From Thermoproteota archaeon (GTDB taxonomy: Archaea; Korarchaeota; Korarchaeia; Korarchaeales; JAOZGB01), in contig JAVCBU010000012.1 of the NCBI GenBank assembly GCA_037917685.1, positions 1 to 64,000 on the forward strand: a stretch of DNA of 64,000 nt. Reading direction: 5' to 3'. The stretch's first letter is position 1; every line of letters begins with the position of its first letter. The position numbers and the translations under genes are program-made. This document shows, in pieces, positions 1,359 through 44,294 of this stretch. The notes beneath the pieces were generated by a model. That model did no database searches. It saw nothing but the letters and a program-made list of their open reading frames with translations, and had not been told where the DNA came from.

Positions 1359-2188
1359 GTGAAAGTAATTGTGAAAGGTTTGCAAAGCATAACATTCGTC
1401 AGCGGGAAAGGGGGAACAGGGAAAACCCTAGTGGCTGTCAACCTGTCGATTATACTCTCTCTAAGGAAGAAGGTGTTACTTATAGATGCCGATGTTAAGG
1501 GTGGATCCTCAGCCTCTCATCTTCTAGGTCTTGGGGGGTAGGCCCCACCTTGAAAGACTTATTACTGGAAAGCCACGTCTATGAGTGGGAGTCAGCTGTT
1601 CACAGGGCTGGAAACCTTGACTTCATACCTGCAGGGGTTAACCTTGACATCATTTGGAGAAGCGTAGCTTGGAGTAGGCTTGAATCTATCATCAGAAACA
1701 TGGAAAAATATGATATTGTCTTAGTCGACGGGCCAGCGCAGTTCGAAGAAGGGTTCATCGGTGTTATGAAAGTTGCAGAATACTACGTCATTGTGCTAAC
1801 ACCAACCCCAGGGAGTATCGAATCCGCTATTAAAATAAGGTTTGCCGCTAGGAAGCTCGGAACCAAGCCCCTAGGCTTTATACTTAACCAGCCAAATATT
1901 TCCATAAGAAACGTTTATGATGTTGCGAGACTCGTAGAGAAGAAGATGTATCTCCCATCGTTGGGACCTGAACACGCCAACTGCAGATGCCTTGGGGTCC
2001 TCCCTTACGATAAGACTGAGTTTATTAGCAGAGTTAGAGGGAAGCCTATAGTAGTATACGAGCCGAGATCAAAGCTCTCAAAGGCCCTCTACGGATTATC
2101 TCTTAAAATCGAAGGCAGACCAGTCAGAAAGAAGGCTCTACTTTCCAAAATAGCAAATTTATTCTCTCATAAACATTTAGCCCGATAG
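1359..2188 (+). pseudogene. MinD/ParA-family ATPase split by a frameshift
   Basis: Deviant Walker A KGGTGKT and LIDAD in 1359-1541; DIVLVDGPA and LGVLPYD in 1550-2188. One extra G in the G6 run at 1533-1538 joins them (LGGVGPTLKD). Confidence 0.75.
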
Positions 2189-29492: not shown

Positions 29493-30407
29493 TCATTTGA
29501 GAAACTTGAGGCATCTTTCAACCTCCGTCTTGCTACCTATTACTATGGGCACTTTCTGGTGGAGCTCTGTAGGTTCTACGTCGAGAATTTCCTGCCGGCC
29601 TGTTGACGCTTTGCCTCCAGCGTTGACGACGATATATGCCATTGGGCTTGCCTCGTACAGCAGTCTTAGTTTTCCTGTCCTCCTTCTCTTGTCTCCGGGG
29701 TATATGAAGATTCCTCCCTCCATGAGCACTTTGTGTATGTCTACAGCCATGGAGCCTGTGTAGCGGAAGTTGTAGAGTTTCTCCGTCTCCCTTCGCTTCT
29801 CCTTTATCCAGTCTATGTACCTTCTATATCCATCTTCAAGCCATACGGCATAGTTTGACTCGTTAGTAGAGTATACCCTGCTCTCATCTGGAATCTTAAT
29901 GTCCCTCATTGTAAGAGTATAGTTCCCTGTTTCCCCGTCTAGGGTAAAACCGTAAACTGCCCCGCCGACCGAAAAGATTAGCTTTATATCGAAGGAGTAT
30001 ATGGCGTATCCAGCTGCCACCTGCATGCGGCCGGGTTTAAAGACTGTTTCCTCATGAATTGAGAAAACAGTGGCCATGGGGCTATCCGTGTATATGTTTC
30101 TTGACCCGTCTAGAGGGTCGTATGCAACTGCGTATCTCCCACGACTATTCTCTAAAGGTTTGGGAAGCTCTTCTGAGACGATCATCCGTAATGCCTTGTT
30201 GCCCCTTAGACCCCTCAGGATAAGGCTGTTAATCATTTCATCTGCAAAGCTGCTGTCCGCCCCCGGGTATTTAAGGTTGAAGATCTTTAACAGCCTGGAT
30301 ATTCTGACTGTTAAGCCTGCAAGGCTCAGGGTTAATTCCACAAGGTCATCTTCAACCTTAAGCTCCGAGAGGAGTTCCTGGAGTGTTGTAAGGCCTTCTT
30401 CATACAT
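29493..30407 (-). CDS. fbp: Class I fructose-1,6-bisphosphatase
   Basis: SEE, DPLDGS.N, RYTGSM..D.H, GGIF.YP, GKLRLLYEA.P, LHQK.P. Confidence 0.88.
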   Translation of the reverse strand: MYEEGLTTLQELLSELKVEDDLVELTLSLAGLTVRISRLLKIFNLKYPGADSSFADEMINSLILRGLRGNKALRMIVSEELPKPLENSRGRYAVAYDPLDGSRNIYTDSPMATVFSIHEETVFKPGRMQVAAGYAIYSFDIKLIFSVGGAVYGFTLDGETGNYTLTMRDIKIPDESRVYSTNESNYAVWLEDGYRRYIDWIKEKRRETEKLYNFRYTGSMAVDIHKVLMEGGIFIYPGDKRRRTGKLRLLYEASPMAYIVVNAGGKASTGRQEILDVEPTELHQKVPIVIGSKTEVERCLKFLK

Positions 30408-39435: not shown

Positions 39436-40107
39436 TAGATTTCTGCTGAAATCTATCTCTACCTTAGCTTTCCCTCCGGCTCTTAGAACCAGGACTAAAA
39501 TGATGAGGGCTATGCTTGCAAGAAGGTATAGGTATGCCCCCGCTTTCAGCCCCCATGACATCTTTCCAAGTTTGAAGCCCATGATCTCGATTACCTCGCC
39601 CCCATATAGAGACAATCCATACTCTTTAAGTTTTGAGGACAATGCAGCTGTGAATAAGGTGAACACGGCTACTCCTACAAGTCCTGATAAAAGATTCACC
39701 TCTTTCCTACCAGTTATCAATGCTATGGCAGACAGCACTAATGGTGTAACTGCAATTATTAAGAACTTATGTAGGGCAGAGTTTAGCTGCTCCAGCTGGG
39801 GAGACTCTTTGAAGGCCTCGCCTAGGTATTCTGTAAGTTGAGCCGCTGCTCCTTTAAGCCCTGAAGGTGATATTGACAATAGTTCCCCAGATAGAAGGGG
39901 AGCATTAATCTTCACACTCCACCAAGGTAAGAAAAGTGATACGGCTAACGATAAAATCAGAATTATAGTTGCCAAATTATGGAGGCTGCTTTGACGCTGG
40001 AGAGTCGGCTCAAATGTGGGTATTAAGCGTTTGCCGCACCTTATGCAGAACTCGGCATGCGGTGGATTTTTATAGCCACAGTGGGGACAAGTAATACTAA
40101 TATCCAT
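39427..40107 (-). CDS. Zinc-ribbon domain membrane protein
   Basis: CPHCG..NP..A.FC..CG followed by 4 TM helices with LPWW. Confidence 0.8.
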   Translation of the reverse strand: MDISITCPHCGYKNPPHAEFCIRCGKRLIPTFEPTLQRQSSLHNLATIILILSLAVSLFLPWWSVKINAPLLSGELLSISPSGLKGAAAQLTEYLGEAFKESPQLEQLNSALHKFLIIAVTPLVLSAIALITGRKEVNLLSGLVGVAVFTLFTAALSSKLKEYGLSLYGGEVIEIMGFKLGKMSWGLKAGAYLYLLASIALIILVLVLRAGGKAKVEIDFSRNLSP

Positions 40108-40384
40108 CTTAGTAATCTGCTATTAGCTCCATTAATAAATTTATGCATCTAACCCGTATTGTTTAAAGTCCATAACTCTATGCCTATGCTACGGAAAGTT
40201 AAGGTTTAAGGTTTAAAGCACACATTTTGGACTGGGGGTATTTTGAAGTATACCACAGATTCTAAGCTTGCATCAAAGCTCGAAGAGCTTTTAGGAGAGA
40301 AAAGGTAGCCGACCAGGAATGTATTCTTCCGTCTTACTCAATGATTTCATTAAATATATTTAGTTTTATCACAGAATAGTTAAA

Positions 40385-40392
40385 TTTATATA
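40385..40392 (+). promoter_or_regulatory. TATA box for the 40415 RNA
   Basis: TTTATATA centred ~26 nt upstream of G40415; no credible plus-strand CDS starts at that point. Confidence 0.6.
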
Positions 40393-40414
40393 GGCTACAG
40401 GTTATCTATTTATT

Positions 40415-40570
40415 GGGCGCCGGAATAGCTGGCTACAAACCCTTGATATAAGCGTACTACAATAAGACGGTTATCCTTAGAACGATGTTATCCGCTGCAG
40501 GCTTGGAACAACATTTTAAGTGGTTCAACCAGCCTGCGGCAGCCTCAGGATGCTTCCGGCGCCCACATCT
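40415..40570 (+). ncRNA. Candidate ~150-nt structured ncRNA (H/ACA-like or tRNA-acceptor mimic)
   Basis: Terminal helix GGGCGCCGGAA/TTCCGGCGCCC; internal 10-bp stem 40494-40503/40531-40540 with a U-G pair; 3' CCCACA; TATA box upstream; T-rich tail. Confidence 0.65.
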
Positions 40571-40837
40571 CTTTATGATAGGATCGCTGGGACAGGTTTC
40601 TAACTGCATGTTTCTTCAGGACTGGAACTTTGAAGTTAATGGCACACAGCACATGCATGCAACGAATATGCATTTCCTATAAGGATGTACAGGCCTATCG
40701 AGTCCTGAATGCGGCTGGTTATAAGATTGTAGGATGTTCAGGTGGTTCCGTGCGTGTTTCAATCTGAATGATATTTAACTGGTAGGGAGGGTTAGGAAAT
40801 TTAATTATTTACCTGTTGGGTTTACTTTGGGTCTAAT

Positions 40838-41091
40838 TTGAGGTGTCTAGTTACTGGTGCCTCCGGATTCATCGGTGGTCATCTTGTGGAGAAGCTTGTC
40901 CGTGACGGACATGAGGTTAGAGCGCTGGTCAGACGGACTAGTAATGTTAGCCTGCTTAGAAATCTTGGTGTAGAACTTGTATACGGGGATATTACAGTCC
41001 CAGAAACATTAAGGCCTGTTGTTAAAGACGTAGATGTGGCATGGAGGACACAGTTAAATGGTATAGGGATAACGGGCTTCTGCAAGGGTGA
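40838..41091 (+). pseudogene. NAD-dependent epimerase/dehydratase with a large internal deletion
   Basis: N-terminal VTGASGFIGGHL...GDIT...VD is fused at ~41037, out of frame, to the family C-terminus GMEDTVKWYRDNGLL. Confidence 0.8.
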
Positions 41092-41097
41092 CGAGAA

Positions 41098-41508
41098 GTG
41101 AGGATTCTCATGTGGCACCTCACAAGTTTCAGGTTCAAACCTAAGAGTAAGGGGAGGACAAGTGTTCTGGGGGAGAAAAGGACTGTTGAAGCTGAGAACT
41201 GCCTTCTAGTCTTCTGCATGGTGGAGAAAAAGGACGCTGAGGGTATCTCAAGCGTTGTCGGAAAGGCTTGCAGGGATATAAGAGAGCAGATGTTAAGAAT
41301 AAAAGTGGATACTGTGGTGTTGCATTCGTTCGCCCACCTGTTCGGAGAACCAGCAAGCCCAGATGTAGCCCTGAAAATTTTAAAGCTGATGGAAGAGATA
41401 CTTCTGCAGGACGGTGTAAAAGTTTTGAAAACGCCTTTCGGATGGTTCGGTGAACTTGAGATTAAGGCTAAAGGTCACCCATTATCGAGAGTGGCGAGGA
41501 AATATTAG
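41098..41508 (+). CDS. Free-standing archaeal-type threonyl-tRNA synthetase editing domain
   Basis: MRIL..H, L.F..VE..D, V.LHSFAHL....A.P, PFGW...E....GHPLSR. Confidence 0.88.
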   Translation: MRILMWHLTSFRFKPKSKGRTSVLGEKRTVEAENCLLVFCMVEKKDAEGISSVVGKACRDIREQMLRIKVDTVVLHSFAHLFGEPASPDVALKILKLMEEILLQDGVKVLKTPFGWFGELEIKAKGHPLSRVARKY

Positions 41509-41844
41509 AATACTACGGATACATTGAGATTCTGTTGATGCTAGGATGCAAAATCCGTACTAAGGGAAGGCTCGACGATGCATCTACGACTGCATGAAAG
41601 ATTAGAGAGGCATTAGGCTTCTAGTTCTTCCCAGCAGAGTAAGCCTAAGCAGCCTGAATCATGGTTGCTCTTGCAAATGTTTCATCGAACGAGACCCCTG
41701 CCATCCTGCTATTGGCGTGCAAATAGACTCCTGAAGGAAAGCCCTAAGAAGAACTCTTCAGGGATCCTTACAAGCTGCAACAGGCACTTGGCGCCTTTGA
41801 CGTGAAATGTTAAAATATAAAAGTTCATCTAGGTCTTGCGGGTT

Positions 41845-42707: not shown

Positions 42708-44294
42708 TTGTTTAGGGCTCCACGTGGTATGAGGGATATCGTAGGGGAGGAAATGGATTTTTGGTGTTGGGTTGAAGACACAGTGAGGTGTGTTTTTGAG
42801 AGTTTCGGATATAAGCGGGTTGAAACCCCGATATTTGAGCATTTTGACCTTTTCGCCCTTCGTTCGGGTGAGGAGATTAGAAATAGAATGTTTGTGTTTA
42901 GGATTGATGAGGGGGAGGTCGCCCTTAGACCTGAGATTACGGCGTCGATTGCAAGATTGGTCTCCTCAGGTCTTGAGGGTGCTCTACCCTATAGGCTCTA
43001 CTACATTGGAAGATGCTTCCGATATGAGGAGCCGCAGTCTGGAAGGTATAGAGAGTTCTGGCAGGCGGGTGTTGAGCTTGTGGGAAGCGGTAGACCGGAG
43101 GCTGATGCTGAACTATTAATTCTTGCCTACGAGGTTGCCGAGAACGTCGGGCTTCGAGACTTCAACCTTAAGATTGGCGATATGAGCATTATCAGGGGGT
43201 TACTGGAGGACTTTAATGTGCCGACTGAGGTGCAAAATAGGATAATTACACCGTTGGATAAGCTTTCAAGTAGTACTGACAGGCTTAGGGCGTTTCTCAC
43301 AAAGGTTAGGAGAGAGGGAAAGCTTGACAGCTTGGAGGTTAAAGAGCTTGCTAGGATAGCTGATAGCCTCAGAATGTGGAGGATTAAAGAGGCTGAGAAG
43401 ATTTCAGCCGGGTTATCGAAGATTCCACGTGAGCACTGGGAATTCGTAGAGGAGGATCCAAGAATATATCTTCTTGAGGAGTTAAATAGCCAAGGAAAAA
43501 CCAGGGAGCTCGCGAACTTTATAGCTGATACTATTGAAGGGCTTAGGAAGGCTTTAATGTTGGAATGGGCATATAACGGGGTTGATACTGTTAGTGGAAA
43601 ATACTTTCTGGATCCAAAGGCCTCAAGCATGTTGTTCGACCTGATAGGGATTTCGGGTGCTCCTTCGAAATGTATCTCCAAGGTCGACGCATTGGTAAAG
43701 GATCTGAAGAGGGCAGCAGACTCTGTAGAGAGATTCGAAACGATTATAGAGCTTGTAGAAGAGGCCGAATTAAGGTTTACTGTTGACTTTGGCCTTGCTA
43801 GGGGCTTGGAGTACTATACTGGAATGGTTTTTGAAATCGACTATCCCGGGCTTGGAGCTGAAAAGCAGATCTGCGGTGGAGGCAGGTATGACCAGTTAAT
43901 ACAAGAGTTTGGAGGACGTCCTACCCCAGCTCTAGGATTTGGTTATGGCTTGGACAGGCTCGTGCTTGCAGCCATGGACTCCAATTTAAAACCAGCGGTT
44001 CCAAGTAAAAGGCTTTTCCTAGTCCCTATAAGTCCAGACGTGGCTGGATATGCTCTAAAGGTCGCTAGGATGCTACATCACGTAGTAAATCTAACATTTG
44101 ATCTCAAGATTAGAGGTGTCAGAGAGGGATTATCCTATGCTTCAAAGAAGGGTTACAGGTACGCAGCTATCATTGGCAGGTCTGAAAAGGAATACGGAAA
44201 AGTTACTATCAAGGATCTTCAGAGTGGTATGCAGGAAACTATACCACTTGACGGAGTCATAGACTACTTGGTGTCAAAAGATGAGGAGAATTAA
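42708..44294 (+). CDS. hisS: Histidyl-tRNA synthetase with an enlarged insertion domain
   Basis: PRG.RD, LRPE.T, FRYE.PQ.GRYREF.Q..VE, RGLEYYTG..FE, GGGRYD, GFGYGLDRL and a C-terminal anticodon-binding domain; 528 aa. Confidence 0.9.
   Translation: MFRAPRGMRDIVGEEMDFWCWVEDTVRCVFESFGYKRVETPIFEHFDLFALRSGEEIRNRMFVFRIDEGEVALRPEITASIARLVSSGLEGALPYRLYYIGRCFRYEEPQSGRYREFWQAGVELVGSGRPEADAELLILAYEVAENVGLRDFNLKIGDMSIIRGLLEDFNVPTEVQNRIITPLDKLSSSTDRLRAFLTKVRREGKLDSLEVKELARIADSLRMWRIKEAEKISAGLSKIPREHWEFVEEDPRIYLLEELNSQGKTRELANFIADTIEGLRKALMLEWAYNGVDTVSGKYFLDPKASSMLFDLIGISGAPSKCISKVDALVKDLKRAADSVERFETIIELVEEAELRFTVDFGLARGLEYYTGMVFEIDYPGLGAEKQICGGGRYDQLIQEFGGRPTPALGFGYGLDRLVLAAMDSNLKPAVPSKRLFLVPISPDVAGYALKVARMLHHVVNLTFDLKIRGVREGLSYASKKGYRYAAIIGRSEKEYGKVTIKDLQSGMQETIPLDGVIDYLVSKDEEN

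What the first reader, a model, noticed from the sequence alone, without database searches (positions are those of the whole stretch)
40385..40575. Promoter-driven ~150-nt RNA with a GC-rich terminal helix ending in C-CCA / ACA, upstream of the HisRS locus
Seen: TATA box at about -26; an 11-bp (12 with U-A) closing helix GGGCGCCGGAA/UUCCGGCGCCC; a 10-bp+4-bp internal hairpin capped by AACAUUUUAAGUG; a ~55-nt weakly paired segment with duplicated CUACAA and GUUAUCC. Reading (a): tRNA-like acceptor mimic. If the mature 5' end is G40417, it pairs with C40562 followed by CCA (40563-40565), which is the G-1:C73 arrangement known as the main HisRS identity element. Reading (b): an H/ACA guide, with ACA at 40565-40567 and a pocket strand GAUGCUU complementary to AAGCAUC (recalled from 23S rRNA GAAAGCAUCUAAG), but no clear K-turn. 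It is not a cloverleaf tRNA. Both readings are inference.
Basis: partly seen in the sequence, partly recalled or inferred. Interest (0 to 1): 0.75.

Follow-up and report, generated by a model that had tools for sequence, protein, structure and literature searches.

The report
Orphan structured small RNA gene, archaeal
This looks like a real gene for a roughly 150-nucleotide structured RNA in an uncultured archaeon, with one known relative, but it fits neither of the two proposed identities and its function is unknown.

Summary
TTTATATA (40385-40392) lies 22 nt upstream of G40415. An 11-bp GC-rich helix (40415-25/40554-64) closes a ~152-nt unit that contains a 10-bp hairpin (40494-503/40531-40).

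One homolog exists, on metagenome contig L036 (103 bits). It sits upstream of the same genes and has the same TATA box at the same spacing. Its flanks cannot be aligned. Both helices are identical in the two copies (0 of 42 stem positions differ, against 34 of 114 elsewhere). I read this as a functional, independently transcribed RNA gene on the + strand.

Neither functional reading is supported.
- **H/ACA guide:** ACA is ACG in the homolog. No K-turn is compatible with the helices. The upper stem lies 24-26 nt from the ACA position, not 14-16.
- **tRNA-His mimic:** ARAGORN and Rfam find nothing. The predicted start at G40415 places the "CC" of CCA inside the helix. The GUG-bearing loop is not conserved.

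The RNA matches no Rfam family, is single-copy, and was not found in the other 42 of 43 genomes of its phylum.

Best guess: a clamp-closed scaffold or guide RNA that presents a conserved A/U-rich 68-nt loop. There is no expression data and no covariation, so function remains inferred.

The parts
40379..40392 (+). Promoter: purine-rich BRE-like GTTAAA followed by the TATA box TTTATATA (40385-40392)
   Evidence: Read. The same TATA box lies at the same 22-nt distance from GGGCGCC in L036, although the spacer sequences differ. In this genome 10 of 16 other stable-RNA genes with a TATA-like 8-mer have spacers of 19-25 nt to the mature 5' end.
40415..40566 (+). The RNA unit (~152 nt). The 5' end is predicted at G40415. 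The 3' end is not mapped; conservation stops after CCCAC.
   Evidence: The blastn block shared with L036 spans 40412-40566 only, at 80.7% identity, and the flanks cannot be aligned. Covariance model R1 scores L036 2719-2878 at 103.2 bits, E 1.5e-21. MFE -57.4 kcal/mol, z -4.18, with 0 of 200 shuffles as stable.
40415..40425 (+). P1, 5' strand of the closing helix (GGGCGCCGGAA)
   Evidence: Pairs with 40554-40564 in the MFE and centroid folds. Identical in L036.
40426..40493 (+). 5' domain: 68 nt, 40% G+C, weakly paired. Conserved blocks are UAGCUG, CAAACCC, UAUAAGCG and UUAUCCUUAGAAC.
   Evidence: 22 of 72 alignment columns differ from L036, with indels of 3, 1 and 1 nt. No helix is supported in both sequences beyond a 3-bp GCU/AGC.
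40494..40503 (+). P3, 5' strand of the internal 10-bp helix (GCUGCAGGCU)
   Evidence: Pairs with 40531-40540 and includes U40496.G40538, which is a pair only on the + strand. Identical in L036.
40504..40530 (+). Apical part of P3. UGGAACAA and a U-run are conserved. The GAAC/GUUC pairing and the GUG are not.
   Evidence: 9 of 27 columns differ from L036. GTG is absent from the L036 unit.
40531..40540 (+). P3, 3' strand (AGCCUGCGGC)
40541..40553 (+). 3' linker AGCCUCAGGAUGC: 13 nt here, 15 nt in L036
   Evidence: Alignment A2: 3 of 15 columns differ, including a 2-nt insertion in L036.
40554..40564 (+). P1, 3' strand (UUCCGGCGCCC)
40565..40567 (+). ACA directly after P1. It reads ACG in L036.

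Best explanation
Window 40415-40566 (+) is an independently transcribed gene for a stable, structured small non-coding RNA. It belongs to no described family and is restricted to a narrow uncultured archaeal lineage.

Shown:
- An archaeal BRE/TATA promoter is conserved in position.
- The unit is a discrete conserved block.
- Two helices are invariant: P1, an 11-bp G+C-rich clamp joining the two ends, and P3, 10 bp.
- The strand is + (promoter side, and a conserved U.G pair in P3).

Inferred mechanism:
- Transcription starts at G40415.
- The clamp defines the ends and protects them from exonucleases.
- P1 and P3 hold open a large asymmetric internal loop, made of the 68-nt A/U-rich 5' domain and the 13-15-nt 3' linker. 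Its conserved single-stranded blocks (UAGCUG, CAAACCC, UAUAAGCG, UUAUCCUUAGAAC, GCAGCCUCA, GAUGC) are the working surface.
- That surface binds either a protein, making the RNA an RNP scaffold (I favour this, about 0.35), or a complementary RNA in trans (about 0.25).

My confidence of 0.6 is for 'real, independent, functional ncRNA gene of an undescribed family'. The scaffold or guide mechanism is a guess within that.
For: - A homolog lies in L036 at the same side and orientation relative to the epimerase, ThrRS-editing-domain and HisRS genes: 103.2 bits, E 1.5e-21.
- Sequence similarity begins 3 nt before the helix and ends 2 nt after it. The surrounding intergenic DNA cannot be aligned.
- TTTATATA-N22-GGGCGCC is identical in both, while the 22-nt spacers differ.
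- The SRP RNA gene and 10 of 16 other stable-RNA genes of this genome with a TATA-like box show a similar spacing of 19-25 nt.
- 0 of 42 stem positions differ between the homologs, against 34 of 114 other columns (Fisher p 5.7e-6).
- All five indels lie outside the stems. Four of the five are not multiples of three, so the region is not coding.
- Folding z-scores are -4.18 (window) and -3.96 (L036), with 0 of 200 shuffles as stable in each.
- The downstream epimerase has its own conserved BRE/TATA block at 40793-40815. That gene is reduced to an 87-aa remnant in the window while the RNA is intact. The RNA is therefore not kept merely as that gene's leader.
- RNase P RNA, SRP RNA, 5S and 23S are all found elsewhere in the genome, so this is not a divergent copy of one of them.
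Against: - There is no expression evidence. None of the 3 sequencing runs listed is RNA.
- Only two sequences are known. Both helices are identical in them, so there is no covariation: 0 of 33 predicted pairs show a two-sided change.
- Invariant G+C-rich inverted repeats could also be read as a DNA-level element.
- Perfect 11-14-nt inverted repeats are not rare in this window.
- The minus strand folds almost as well (-56.3 kcal/mol, z -3.15).
- No terminator-like T-run follows the unit in L036, so how the 3' end forms is unexplained.
- No partner was found. No complementarity to rRNAs, 5S, SRP or RNase P RNA exceeds shuffled controls: the lowest shuffle fraction was 0.04 among 15 tests. No genome-wide antisense match is longer than 14 nt.
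Confidence: 0.6

Rival explanations
1. It is an archaeal H/ACA pseudouridylation guide. P1 is the lower stem, ACA is the box, and the loop is the pocket.
For: In the window a G+C-rich lower stem is followed directly by ACA. GAUGCUU (40549-55) is complementary to AAGCAUC in the genome's own 23S, and G40549 lies 16 nt from the ACA. The genome encodes Nop10 (46.9 bits, above the cut-off) and a weak Gar1-like match (21.1 bits, below the cut-off), so the machinery probably exists.
Against: - ACA is ACG in the homolog.
- The only K-turn-like arrangement found needs a wobble-rich pairing that competes with P1.
- Classic archaeal guides have a K-turn in the upper stem and the target 14-16 nt from ACA. 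The atypical ones lose the lower stem and ACA, and their figure legend still marks a K-turn motif (passages of PMC11077068). Here the feature that is kept is the opposite one.
- From the base of P3 to the ACA position is 24 nt (window) and 26 nt (L036), and that distance differs between the two copies.
- The 5' pocket strand would be 68 nt.
- The 23S match is 8 nt including a G.U pair and overlaps P1. Matches of that size are numerous.
- No Rfam H/ACA family matches, even at E up to 10.
Confidence: 0.04
2. It is a tRNA-like acceptor mimic. In the reader's form (a), G40417:C40562 followed by CCA mimics the G-1:C73 identity of tRNA-His and is charged by the nearby HisRS. In a weaker form, the 11-12-bp terminal helix plus an unpaired A mimics the acceptor/T minihelix, so that tRNA enzymes (tRNase Z, CCA-adding enzyme) make the 3' end.
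For: - P1 is 11 bp (12 with U:A), about the length of the stacked acceptor and T stems (recalled knowledge).
- CCC-A-C after the helix is conserved in both homologs.
- UAGCU follows the helix, as U8-A9-G10-C11-U12 does in this genome's tRNAs.
- Promoter spacing resembles that of the tRNA genes.
- No T-run terminator follows the unit in L036, so endonucleolytic 3' processing is plausible.
Against: - ARAGORN finds nothing in the window. The Rfam tRNA and tmRNA models find nothing at E up to 10.
- Local alignment to 35 tRNAs of the genome is no better than shuffles (score 20 against a mean of 19.3; fraction 0.39).
- There is no GG in the D-like region and no UUCRA T-loop.
- With the start at G40415, the CC of 'CCA' is base-paired.
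- The GUG loop is not conserved.
- HisRS is 2.1 kb downstream, beyond a decayed epimerase, the ThrRS editing-domain gene and a phosphoesterase gene.
- A candidate multi-intron tRNA-His with C73 exists at G000:C6 about 1575-1690 (-) (not validated).
Confidence: 0.08
3. It is a cis-acting leader (riboswitch-like or processing element) of a longer transcript that runs into the epimerase, ThrRS-editing-domain and following genes.
For: It has the same orientation as, and conserved synteny with, those genes in both genomes. A multi-helix fold closed by P1 is the usual aptamer layout (recalled). No clear terminator follows the unit.
Against: - The epimerase gene has its own BRE/TATA block, identical in both genomes, 30 nt before its start codon.
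- The spacer between the RNA and that block is 228 nt in the window and 78 nt in L036, and is mostly unalignable.
- An 11-bp G+C-rich P1 is too stable to switch.
- The RNA is intact although the first downstream gene has decayed.
Confidence: 0.1
4. It is a DNA-level or relic element, such as a miniature inverted-repeat element or a protein-binding palindrome, and not a functional RNA.
For: - It has 12-nt perfect terminal inverted repeats on a ~150-bp unit.
- It sits at a synteny break: the upstream genes differ between the window and L036.
- The helices are invariant rather than covarying.
- The minus strand folds nearly as well.
Against: - It is single-copy in the genome by BLAST and by covariance model.
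- The 12 viral contigs that hold exact 17-18-nt words from it do not match the model.
- No direct repeats flank it in either genome.
- The TATA box is kept at exactly the same distance in both genomes.
- The conserved U.G pair in P3 is a pair only on the + strand RNA.
Confidence: 0.12

Closest known systems
Classic archaeal H/ACA guide sRNA (single hairpin: lower stem, pocket, upper stem with K-turn, ACA)
   Same: A G+C-rich helix joins the 5' and 3' ends and is followed, in the window, by ACA. A large internal loop lies between that helix and a second helix. The unit has its own promoter and starts at the helix.
   Different: It is 152 nt, not roughly 60-75 nt per hairpin (the hairpin length is recalled). 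No K-turn was found. ACA is not conserved. The helix-to-box distance is 24-26 nt and variable, against 14-16 nt (for the rule). No bipartite rRNA or tRNA target was found.
tRNA acceptor/T-stem minihelix and tRNA-like structures
   Same: It has an 11-12-bp terminal helix with one conserved unpaired purine after it. UAGCU follows the 5' strand. Its promoter geometry is tRNA-gene-like.
   Different: There is no cloverleaf, no D-loop or T-loop signature and no anticodon arm conserved between the homologs. No tRNA model matches.
Clamp-closed scaffold RNAs such as Y RNA or SRP RNA (named from recalled knowledge)
   Same: The 5' and 3' ends are paired into a long helix that closes an internally looped body. 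The unit is a single-copy, promoter-driven stable RNA. The SRP RNA gene of this genome was the only other intergenic hit of my TATA-plus-clamp screen.
   Different: It matches no Rfam model of these families. The genome's true SRP RNA is elsewhere. No Ro/TROVE search was done.
Lineage-specific trans-acting archaeal sRNAs (for example those described in Methanosarcina, Haloferax and Sulfolobus; recalled, not searched)
   Same: It is an intergenic, promoter-driven RNA of roughly 100-200 nt with conserved single-stranded pyrimidine-rich blocks (UAUCCUUA, GCCUCA) that could pair with purine-rich mRNA sites.
   Different: No target was found. The longest genome-wide antisense match is 14 nt, about what chance gives. 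The very stable terminal clamp is not a usual feature of such regulators.

Membership tests
Archaeal H/ACA guide sRNA | ACA (ANA) box at the 3' tail, conserved among homologs | tested here: not met
   ACA at 40565-67 in the window, but ACG at the same place in L036.
Archaeal H/ACA guide sRNA | K-turn or K-loop (tandem sheared G.A pairs) in the upper stem, for L7Ae binding | tested here: not met
   A script scan of both homologs for stem, 3-nt bulge, GA...GA found only one arrangement. It needs a GGGCG/UGCUU wobble pairing that competes with P1, and nothing was found on P3. The feature definition comes from passages of PMC11077068.
Archaeal H/ACA guide sRNA | Target uridine (top of the pocket) 14-16 nt from the ACA box | tested here: not met
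   From the base of P3 to the ACA position is 13+11 = 24 nt in the window and 15+11 = 26 nt in L036.
Archaeal H/ACA guide sRNA | Bipartite guide complementary to rRNA or tRNA around a uridine | tested here: inconclusive
   The 23S AAGCAUC match is 8 nt including a G.U pair and overlaps P1. Duplex energies against 23S, the 5' part of 16S, 5S, SRP RNA and RNase P RNA do not differ from shuffles. The 3' part of 16S is not in the assembly.
Archaeal H/ACA guide sRNA | Binding to Cbf5-Nop10-Gar1-L7Ae | not testable with these tools
   Only the genes could be looked for: Nop10 is present, and the Gar1 match is below the cut-off.
tRNA or tRNA-His-like acceptor | Cloverleaf detectable by tRNA models | tested here: not met
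   ARAGORN finds 0 genes in the window. Rfam finds nothing on the unit at E up to 10.
tRNA or tRNA-His-like acceptor | G-1:C73 at the end of the acceptor helix with a free single-stranded CCA 3' end | tested here: inconclusive
   The letters C-CCA are present and conserved, but as part of P1. The promoter spacing predicts a start at G40415, which pairs the CC. The true ends are unmapped because no RNA runs were listed.
tRNA or tRNA-His-like acceptor | D-loop GG and T-loop UUCRA elbow elements; GUG anticodon loop | tested here: not met
   Neither motif appears in the unit in the expected arms. GUG at 40520 is absent from L036. There is no significant similarity to 35 own tRNAs.
tRNA or tRNA-His-like acceptor | Aminoacylation by HisRS | not testable with these tools
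   Needs an in vitro charging assay.
C/D box sRNA | C box RUGAUGA and D box CUGA near the ends | tested here: not met
   Read directly from the sequence. There is no CUGA in the unit, and UGAUAU at 40444 is not kept in L036.
Miniature inverted-repeat transposable element | Multiple dispersed copies and target-site duplication | tested here: not met
   One copy in the 1.81-Mb genome by BLAST and by covariance model. No flanking direct repeat.
Universal stable RNAs (RNase P RNA, SRP RNA, 5S rRNA) | Match to the family model, or absence of another copy in the genome | tested here: not met
   All three are found elsewhere above their Rfam cut-offs. The unit matches none of them.

The most novel reading that the evidence does not exclude
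The RNA is a stable archaeal RNA whose paired ends imitate the tRNA acceptor/T minihelix (11-12 bp plus a conserved unpaired A). tRNA enzymes would therefore handle it. tRNase Z would cut after A40565, and the CCA-adding enzyme would extend it. In the boldest form an aminoacyl-tRNA synthetase encoded in the neighbourhood would charge it. The tRNA-processing machinery would then be coupled to a non-tRNA body that carries a large conserved loop. My data do not exclude this, because the ends are unmapped and the helix, the following A-C and the lack of a terminator in L036 are all compatible with it.
Probability: 0.07. Interest if true: 0.7.

Novelty: new member of a known kind. Interest (0 to 1): 0.3.

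Why it matters
If transcribed as predicted, this is a new family of structured small RNA in a deep-branching, uncultured archaeal lineage. That phylum has only 43 species genomes in the set searched, and the nearest HisRS relatives, labelled Bathyarchaeia or Thermoproteota, are at most 47% identical. Almost no non-coding RNAs beyond the universal ones are known for such lineages.

Its layout is unusual: a very stable terminal clamp around a long, sequence-conserved, mostly unpaired A/U-rich loop. That makes it a reasonable candidate for a new RNP or guide.

The practical value now is modest. The work removes two attractive but unsupported labels (H/ACA guide, tRNA-His mimic). It defines the gene's limits, strand and promoter. 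It also provides a covariance model (R2) that can be run over larger metagenome collections to obtain the covariation that is missing.

Tried and rejected
**Known families.** Rfam at gathering thresholds over the whole window gave 0 matches. At E up to 10 over 40000-41000 the only match was a chance C/D hit (ceN33, E 6.7) on the minus strand at 40924-41000, inside the epimerase remnant. ARAGORN found nothing in the window.

**More homologs.**
- BLAST of the unit against 41 genomes found only itself. The other matches are 14-36 nt with E of 0.05 or more.
- Model R1 on 38 genomes of the order matched 1 of 38, the window's own genome.
- Model R2 on 40 genomes of the class matched the window's own genome plus one 16.7-bit match in G004. 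That match lacks P3 and has two non-pairs in P1, so I treat it as chance.
- R2 on 43 genomes of the phylum matched 1 of 43, the window's own genome, with stricter filters.
- R2 on 80 HisRS loci gave one 16.9-bit match at E 0.19.
- R2 on 3 ThrRS-ED loci gave nothing above 9.2 bits.
- The same-genus genome G001 (66% complete) lacks the whole locus with the queries used, so it is uninformative.
- Two exact words from the unit hit 4 and 8 viral contigs. None of the 12 matches R2.

**Expression.** No RNA holder was listed among the 3 runs. Laying X1-X3 showed two identical DNA contigs and no variants.

**rRNA guide idea.**
- A perfect 12-nt antisense match joins 40416-27 to 23S 1550-61. Of 1000 shuffles, 33 reach 12 nt and 6 reach the observed number of 10-mers.
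- By gapped local alignment 15% of shuffles score as well.
- The duplex energies are unremarkable.
- The matching strand is locked in P1.
- I leave this as an unexplained coincidence.

**Other tests.**
- Descent from a tRNA gene: no significant similarity.
- Small ORF: an AUG at 40550 opens 17 codons here and 15 in L036, ending at the same TAA. Only MLPAPT, encoded by P1, is shared, so I rejected it (read).
- Pseudoknots between the P3 loop and the 5' domain or the 3' linker: only one-sided changes in two sequences, which is not evidence.

**Screen for similar genes in the window's own genome.** A search for a TATA box, 20-26 nt, then a clamp of at least 9 bp found only this RNA, the SRP RNA, and one hit inside a 754-aa ORF.

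**Screen for canonical H/ACA hairpins in the window's own genome, as a control**.
- The best-looking candidate was G000:C6:1161-1246(-).
- It lies in the 16S leader, with a TATA box only 5 nt upstream.
- It has no Rfam H/ACA match.
- I do not use it as a control.

**Not informative or not available.**
- The bacterial promoter and terminator scan is not informative for an archaeon.
- Four literature searches returned no paper describing such an RNA. Apart from the passages of PMC11077068, I saw only the search listings.
I did not use the look-up of encoding contigs, whose tool description says it is closed for all sessions.
- I opened no supplementary files.
- I did not use complex prediction, structure prediction or the protein searches, because no protein claim is made.
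Full report
**What is there.** The window is archaeal DNA of about 44% G+C.
- It is the first 64 kb of contig C1 of a 1.81-Mb, 22-contig, 95%-complete genome.
- Only 43 species genomes of the same phylum are held in the set searched.
- Its HisRS is at most 47% identical to any hit in the species-genome collection. The nearest hits are labelled Bathyarchaeia or Thermoproteota.

Positions 40108-40837 hold no ORF of 50 aa or more that is conserved.
- TTTATATA at 40385-92.
- A 22-nt spacer, then GGGCGCCGGAA (40415-25), which pairs with UUCCGGCGCCC (40554-64).
- A 10-bp helix at 40494-503/40531-40 with one U.G pair, extended by GAAC/GUUC and capped by AACAUUUUAAGUG.
- A 68-nt, 40% G+C, weakly paired stretch carrying CUACAA twice and GUUAUCC twice.
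- CCA at 40563 and ACA at 40565.

The 152-nt unit has 52% G+C, against 37% for the rest of the gap. It folds to -57.4 kcal/mol with z -4.18, and 0 of 200 shuffles are as stable.

**Is it more than chance?** The closing helix alone is not. The window contains other perfect 11-14-nt inverted repeats within 300 nt of each other. The decisive evidence is comparative.

I scanned metagenome contigs with the neighbouring free-standing ThrRS editing-domain protein. That gave 17 loci, one of them (L036) 81% identical at the protein level. A covariance model built from the window sequence alone scores L036 2719-2878 at 103.2 bits (E 1.5e-21). The next best of 58 listed matches, at 14.2 bits, is the reverse strand of the same place.

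By blastn the similarity between the two genomes in this gap is confined to 40412-40566 (80.7% identity). It resumes only at the epimerase promoter. The DNA on both sides cannot be aligned.

L036 carries TTTATATA at exactly the same 22-nt distance from GGGCGCC, although the spacer letters differ.

Between the two copies 0 of 42 stem positions differ, against 34 of 114 other columns (Fisher p 5.7e-6). All five indels lie outside the stems and four of the five are not multiples of three. The L036 copy folds with z -3.96.

**Strand and ends.**
- The promoter lies on the + side.
- The U40496.G40538 pair of P3, kept in both copies, is a pair only in + strand RNA. The minus strand nevertheless folds nearly as well (z -3.15).
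- A screen of the genome for a TATA box followed 20-26 nt later by a clamp helix returned only this unit, the SRP RNA gene, and a hit inside an ORF.
- Among 16 other stable-RNA genes with a TATA-like 8-mer, 10 have spacers of 19-25 nt to the mature 5' end.

I therefore place the start at G40415, the first base of the helix.

The 3' end is unknown. Conservation stops after CCCAC. The window has TCTCTTTAT next, but L036 has no T-run nearby.

**What it is not.**
- Not a universal stable RNA. RNase P RNA, SRP RNA, 5S and 23S rRNA are all found elsewhere above their cut-offs. No Rfam family matches the unit at gathering thresholds or at E up to 10.
- Not coding (indel pattern). An AUG-to-TAA frame starting at 40550 shares only the six residues encoded by P1 with its L036 counterpart.
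- Not a mobile element by the tests I could run. It is single-copy and has no flanking direct repeats. The viral contigs holding exact words of it do not match the model.
- Probably not the leader of the downstream gene.
  - The epimerase has its own BRE/TATA block, identical in both genomes, at 40793-40815.
  - The spacer is 228 nt against 78 nt.
  - In the window the epimerase is reduced to an 87-aa remnant by a deletion of about 739 nt, while the RNA is intact.

**Reading (b), H/ACA guide.**
[quoted passage not shown] The atypical guides lose the lower stem and ACA, and their figure legend still marks a K-turn motif.
- Here the homolog has ACG.
- A scan of both copies for a K-turn arrangement finds only one, and it needs a wobble pairing that competes with P1.
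- The distance from P3 to the ACA position is 24 nt, or 26 nt in L036.
- The 5' pocket strand would be 68 nt.
It is only 8 nt including a G.U pair, it overlaps P1, and it is one of many such matches.
- The H/ACA proteins are probably encoded (Nop10 present, Gar1 weak), so the organism likely has guides. This unit fails four defining features.

**Reading (a), tRNA-His mimic.**
- No tRNA model sees the unit.
- It has no significant similarity to 35 of the genome's tRNAs.
- The GUG loop is not conserved.
- With the start at G40415 the CC of CCA is paired.
- Neither ARAGORN (43 calls, some plainly wrong) nor Rfam (37 matches) calls a tRNA-His. This is not meaningful, because many other isoacceptors are missing too.
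- A T-arm scan found a candidate multi-intron tRNA-His with C73 and a GUG in its middle at G000:C6 about 1575-1690(-). I did not validate it.
- What survives of reading (a) is only a resemblance. An 11-12-bp terminal helix followed by a conserved unpaired A, with UAGCU after the 5' strand, recalls an acceptor/T minihelix. I keep this as the boldest reading that is not excluded.

**Search for a partner.** Nothing was found.
- The perfect 12-nt antisense match of the P1 5' strand to 23S 1550-61 is reached by 33 of 1000 shuffles. It is unremarkable by gapped alignment.
- Duplex energies of the three unpaired parts against five stable RNAs do not differ from shuffles. The lowest fraction is 0.04 among 15 tests.
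- The longest antisense match anywhere in the genome is 14 nt.

**Limits.**
- Only two sequences are known, and there is no covariation (0 of 33 predicted pairs with a two-sided change).
- There is no population variation. Two DNA runs hold identical sequence.
- No RNA run was listed.
- The unit was not found in the other 42 genomes of the phylum. The one same-genus genome is 66% complete and lacks the locus.

**Verdict.** The unit is most likely (0.6) a real, independently transcribed, structured small RNA gene of an undescribed, narrowly distributed family.

The mechanism I commit to is inferred, not shown. A very stable terminal clamp and a second rigid arm present a long, conserved, mostly unpaired loop as a binding surface, for a protein (favoured) or for an RNA. 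Interest is moderate to low until the ends, expression and more homologs are available.

Noticed in passing
window 40838-41101 (+); L036 2976-3998: The NAD-dependent epimerase/dehydratase gene downstream of the RNA is an 87-aa remnant in the window. L036 has the intact 340-aa gene. About 739 nt (L036 3197-3935) are missing, yet the gene's BRE/TATA block (40793-40815) is kept.
   Followed up: partly
window 41098-41508 (+); G000:C1:305611-306003: A free-standing 136-aa copy of the archaea-specific ThrRS editing domain (PF08915, E 3e-38) stands beside a full-length ThrRS elsewhere in the genome (616-aa open frame). Among the 43 genomes of the phylum, nearly all other matches are the N-terminal domain of full-length ThrRS. 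Only G038 has another short form, a 206-aa frame at 38% identity. It may be a trans-editing factor.
   Followed up: partly
window 41568-41765; L036 4669-5523 (-): Two short blastn blocks (41568-41683 and 41726-41765) match part of a Rce1-like CAAX protease gene that is intact in L036. The window has no ORF of 50 aa or more there, so this looks like a second decayed gene in the same neighbourhood.
   Followed up: no
window 42708-44294 (+): The HisRS is 528 aa. The six closest hits (43-47% identical) span about 1.57-1.60 kb, while most other archaeal hits span about 1.2 kb. Pfam splits the HisRS domain into two stretches. An insertion of roughly 100 aa therefore seems specific to this group.
   Followed up: no
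G000:C1:431435-434800 (-), outside the window: The RNase P RNA gene (431435-431693) lies 45 nt downstream of the 23S rRNA gene (431739-434800) on the same strand. The 5S rRNA is on another contig. RNase P RNA may be co-transcribed with 23S.
   Followed up: no
G000:C6 about 1575-1690 (-), outside the window: This is a candidate tRNA-His that neither ARAGORN nor the Rfam tRNA model called. It has a good T-arm, the acceptor pair GCCGGGA/UCCCGGC, C73 and a GUG in the middle, with apparently several introns. The base before G1 is T, so G-1 does not seem to be encoded. Many tRNA genes of this genome carry introns at unusual places.
   Followed up: partly
window 40416-40427 versus the genome's own 23S rRNA positions 1550-1561: The 5' strand of P1 has a perfect 12-nt antisense match (GGCGCCGGAAUA with UAUUCCGGCGCC) to a hairpin region of 23S domain III. 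A further 10-nt match (40436-45) lies 90 nt upstream in 23S. Borderline by shuffles (33 of 1000 for the 12-mer) and not significant by gapped alignment.
   Followed up: yes
window 40596-40608; L036 about 2897-2909: A short block (TTTCTAACTGCA here, TTTGTAACTGTA in L036) is the only conserved piece in the otherwise unalignable 3' flank, 30-40 nt after the RNA. It could be a terminator or a processing signal.
   Followed up: no
window 40200-40219 and 40335-40378: Upstream of the promoter there is a tandem TAAGGTT TAAGGTT TAAAG and an A/T-rich imperfect palindrome (27-nt arms, 74% complementary). Neither is present in L036.
   Followed up: no
window 30271-30284 / 30348-30361: A perfect 14-nt inverted repeat (TTAAGGTTGAAGAT / ATCTTCAACCTTAA) has 63 nt between its arms. 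It is the longest perfect one in the window. I did not examine it.
   Followed up: no
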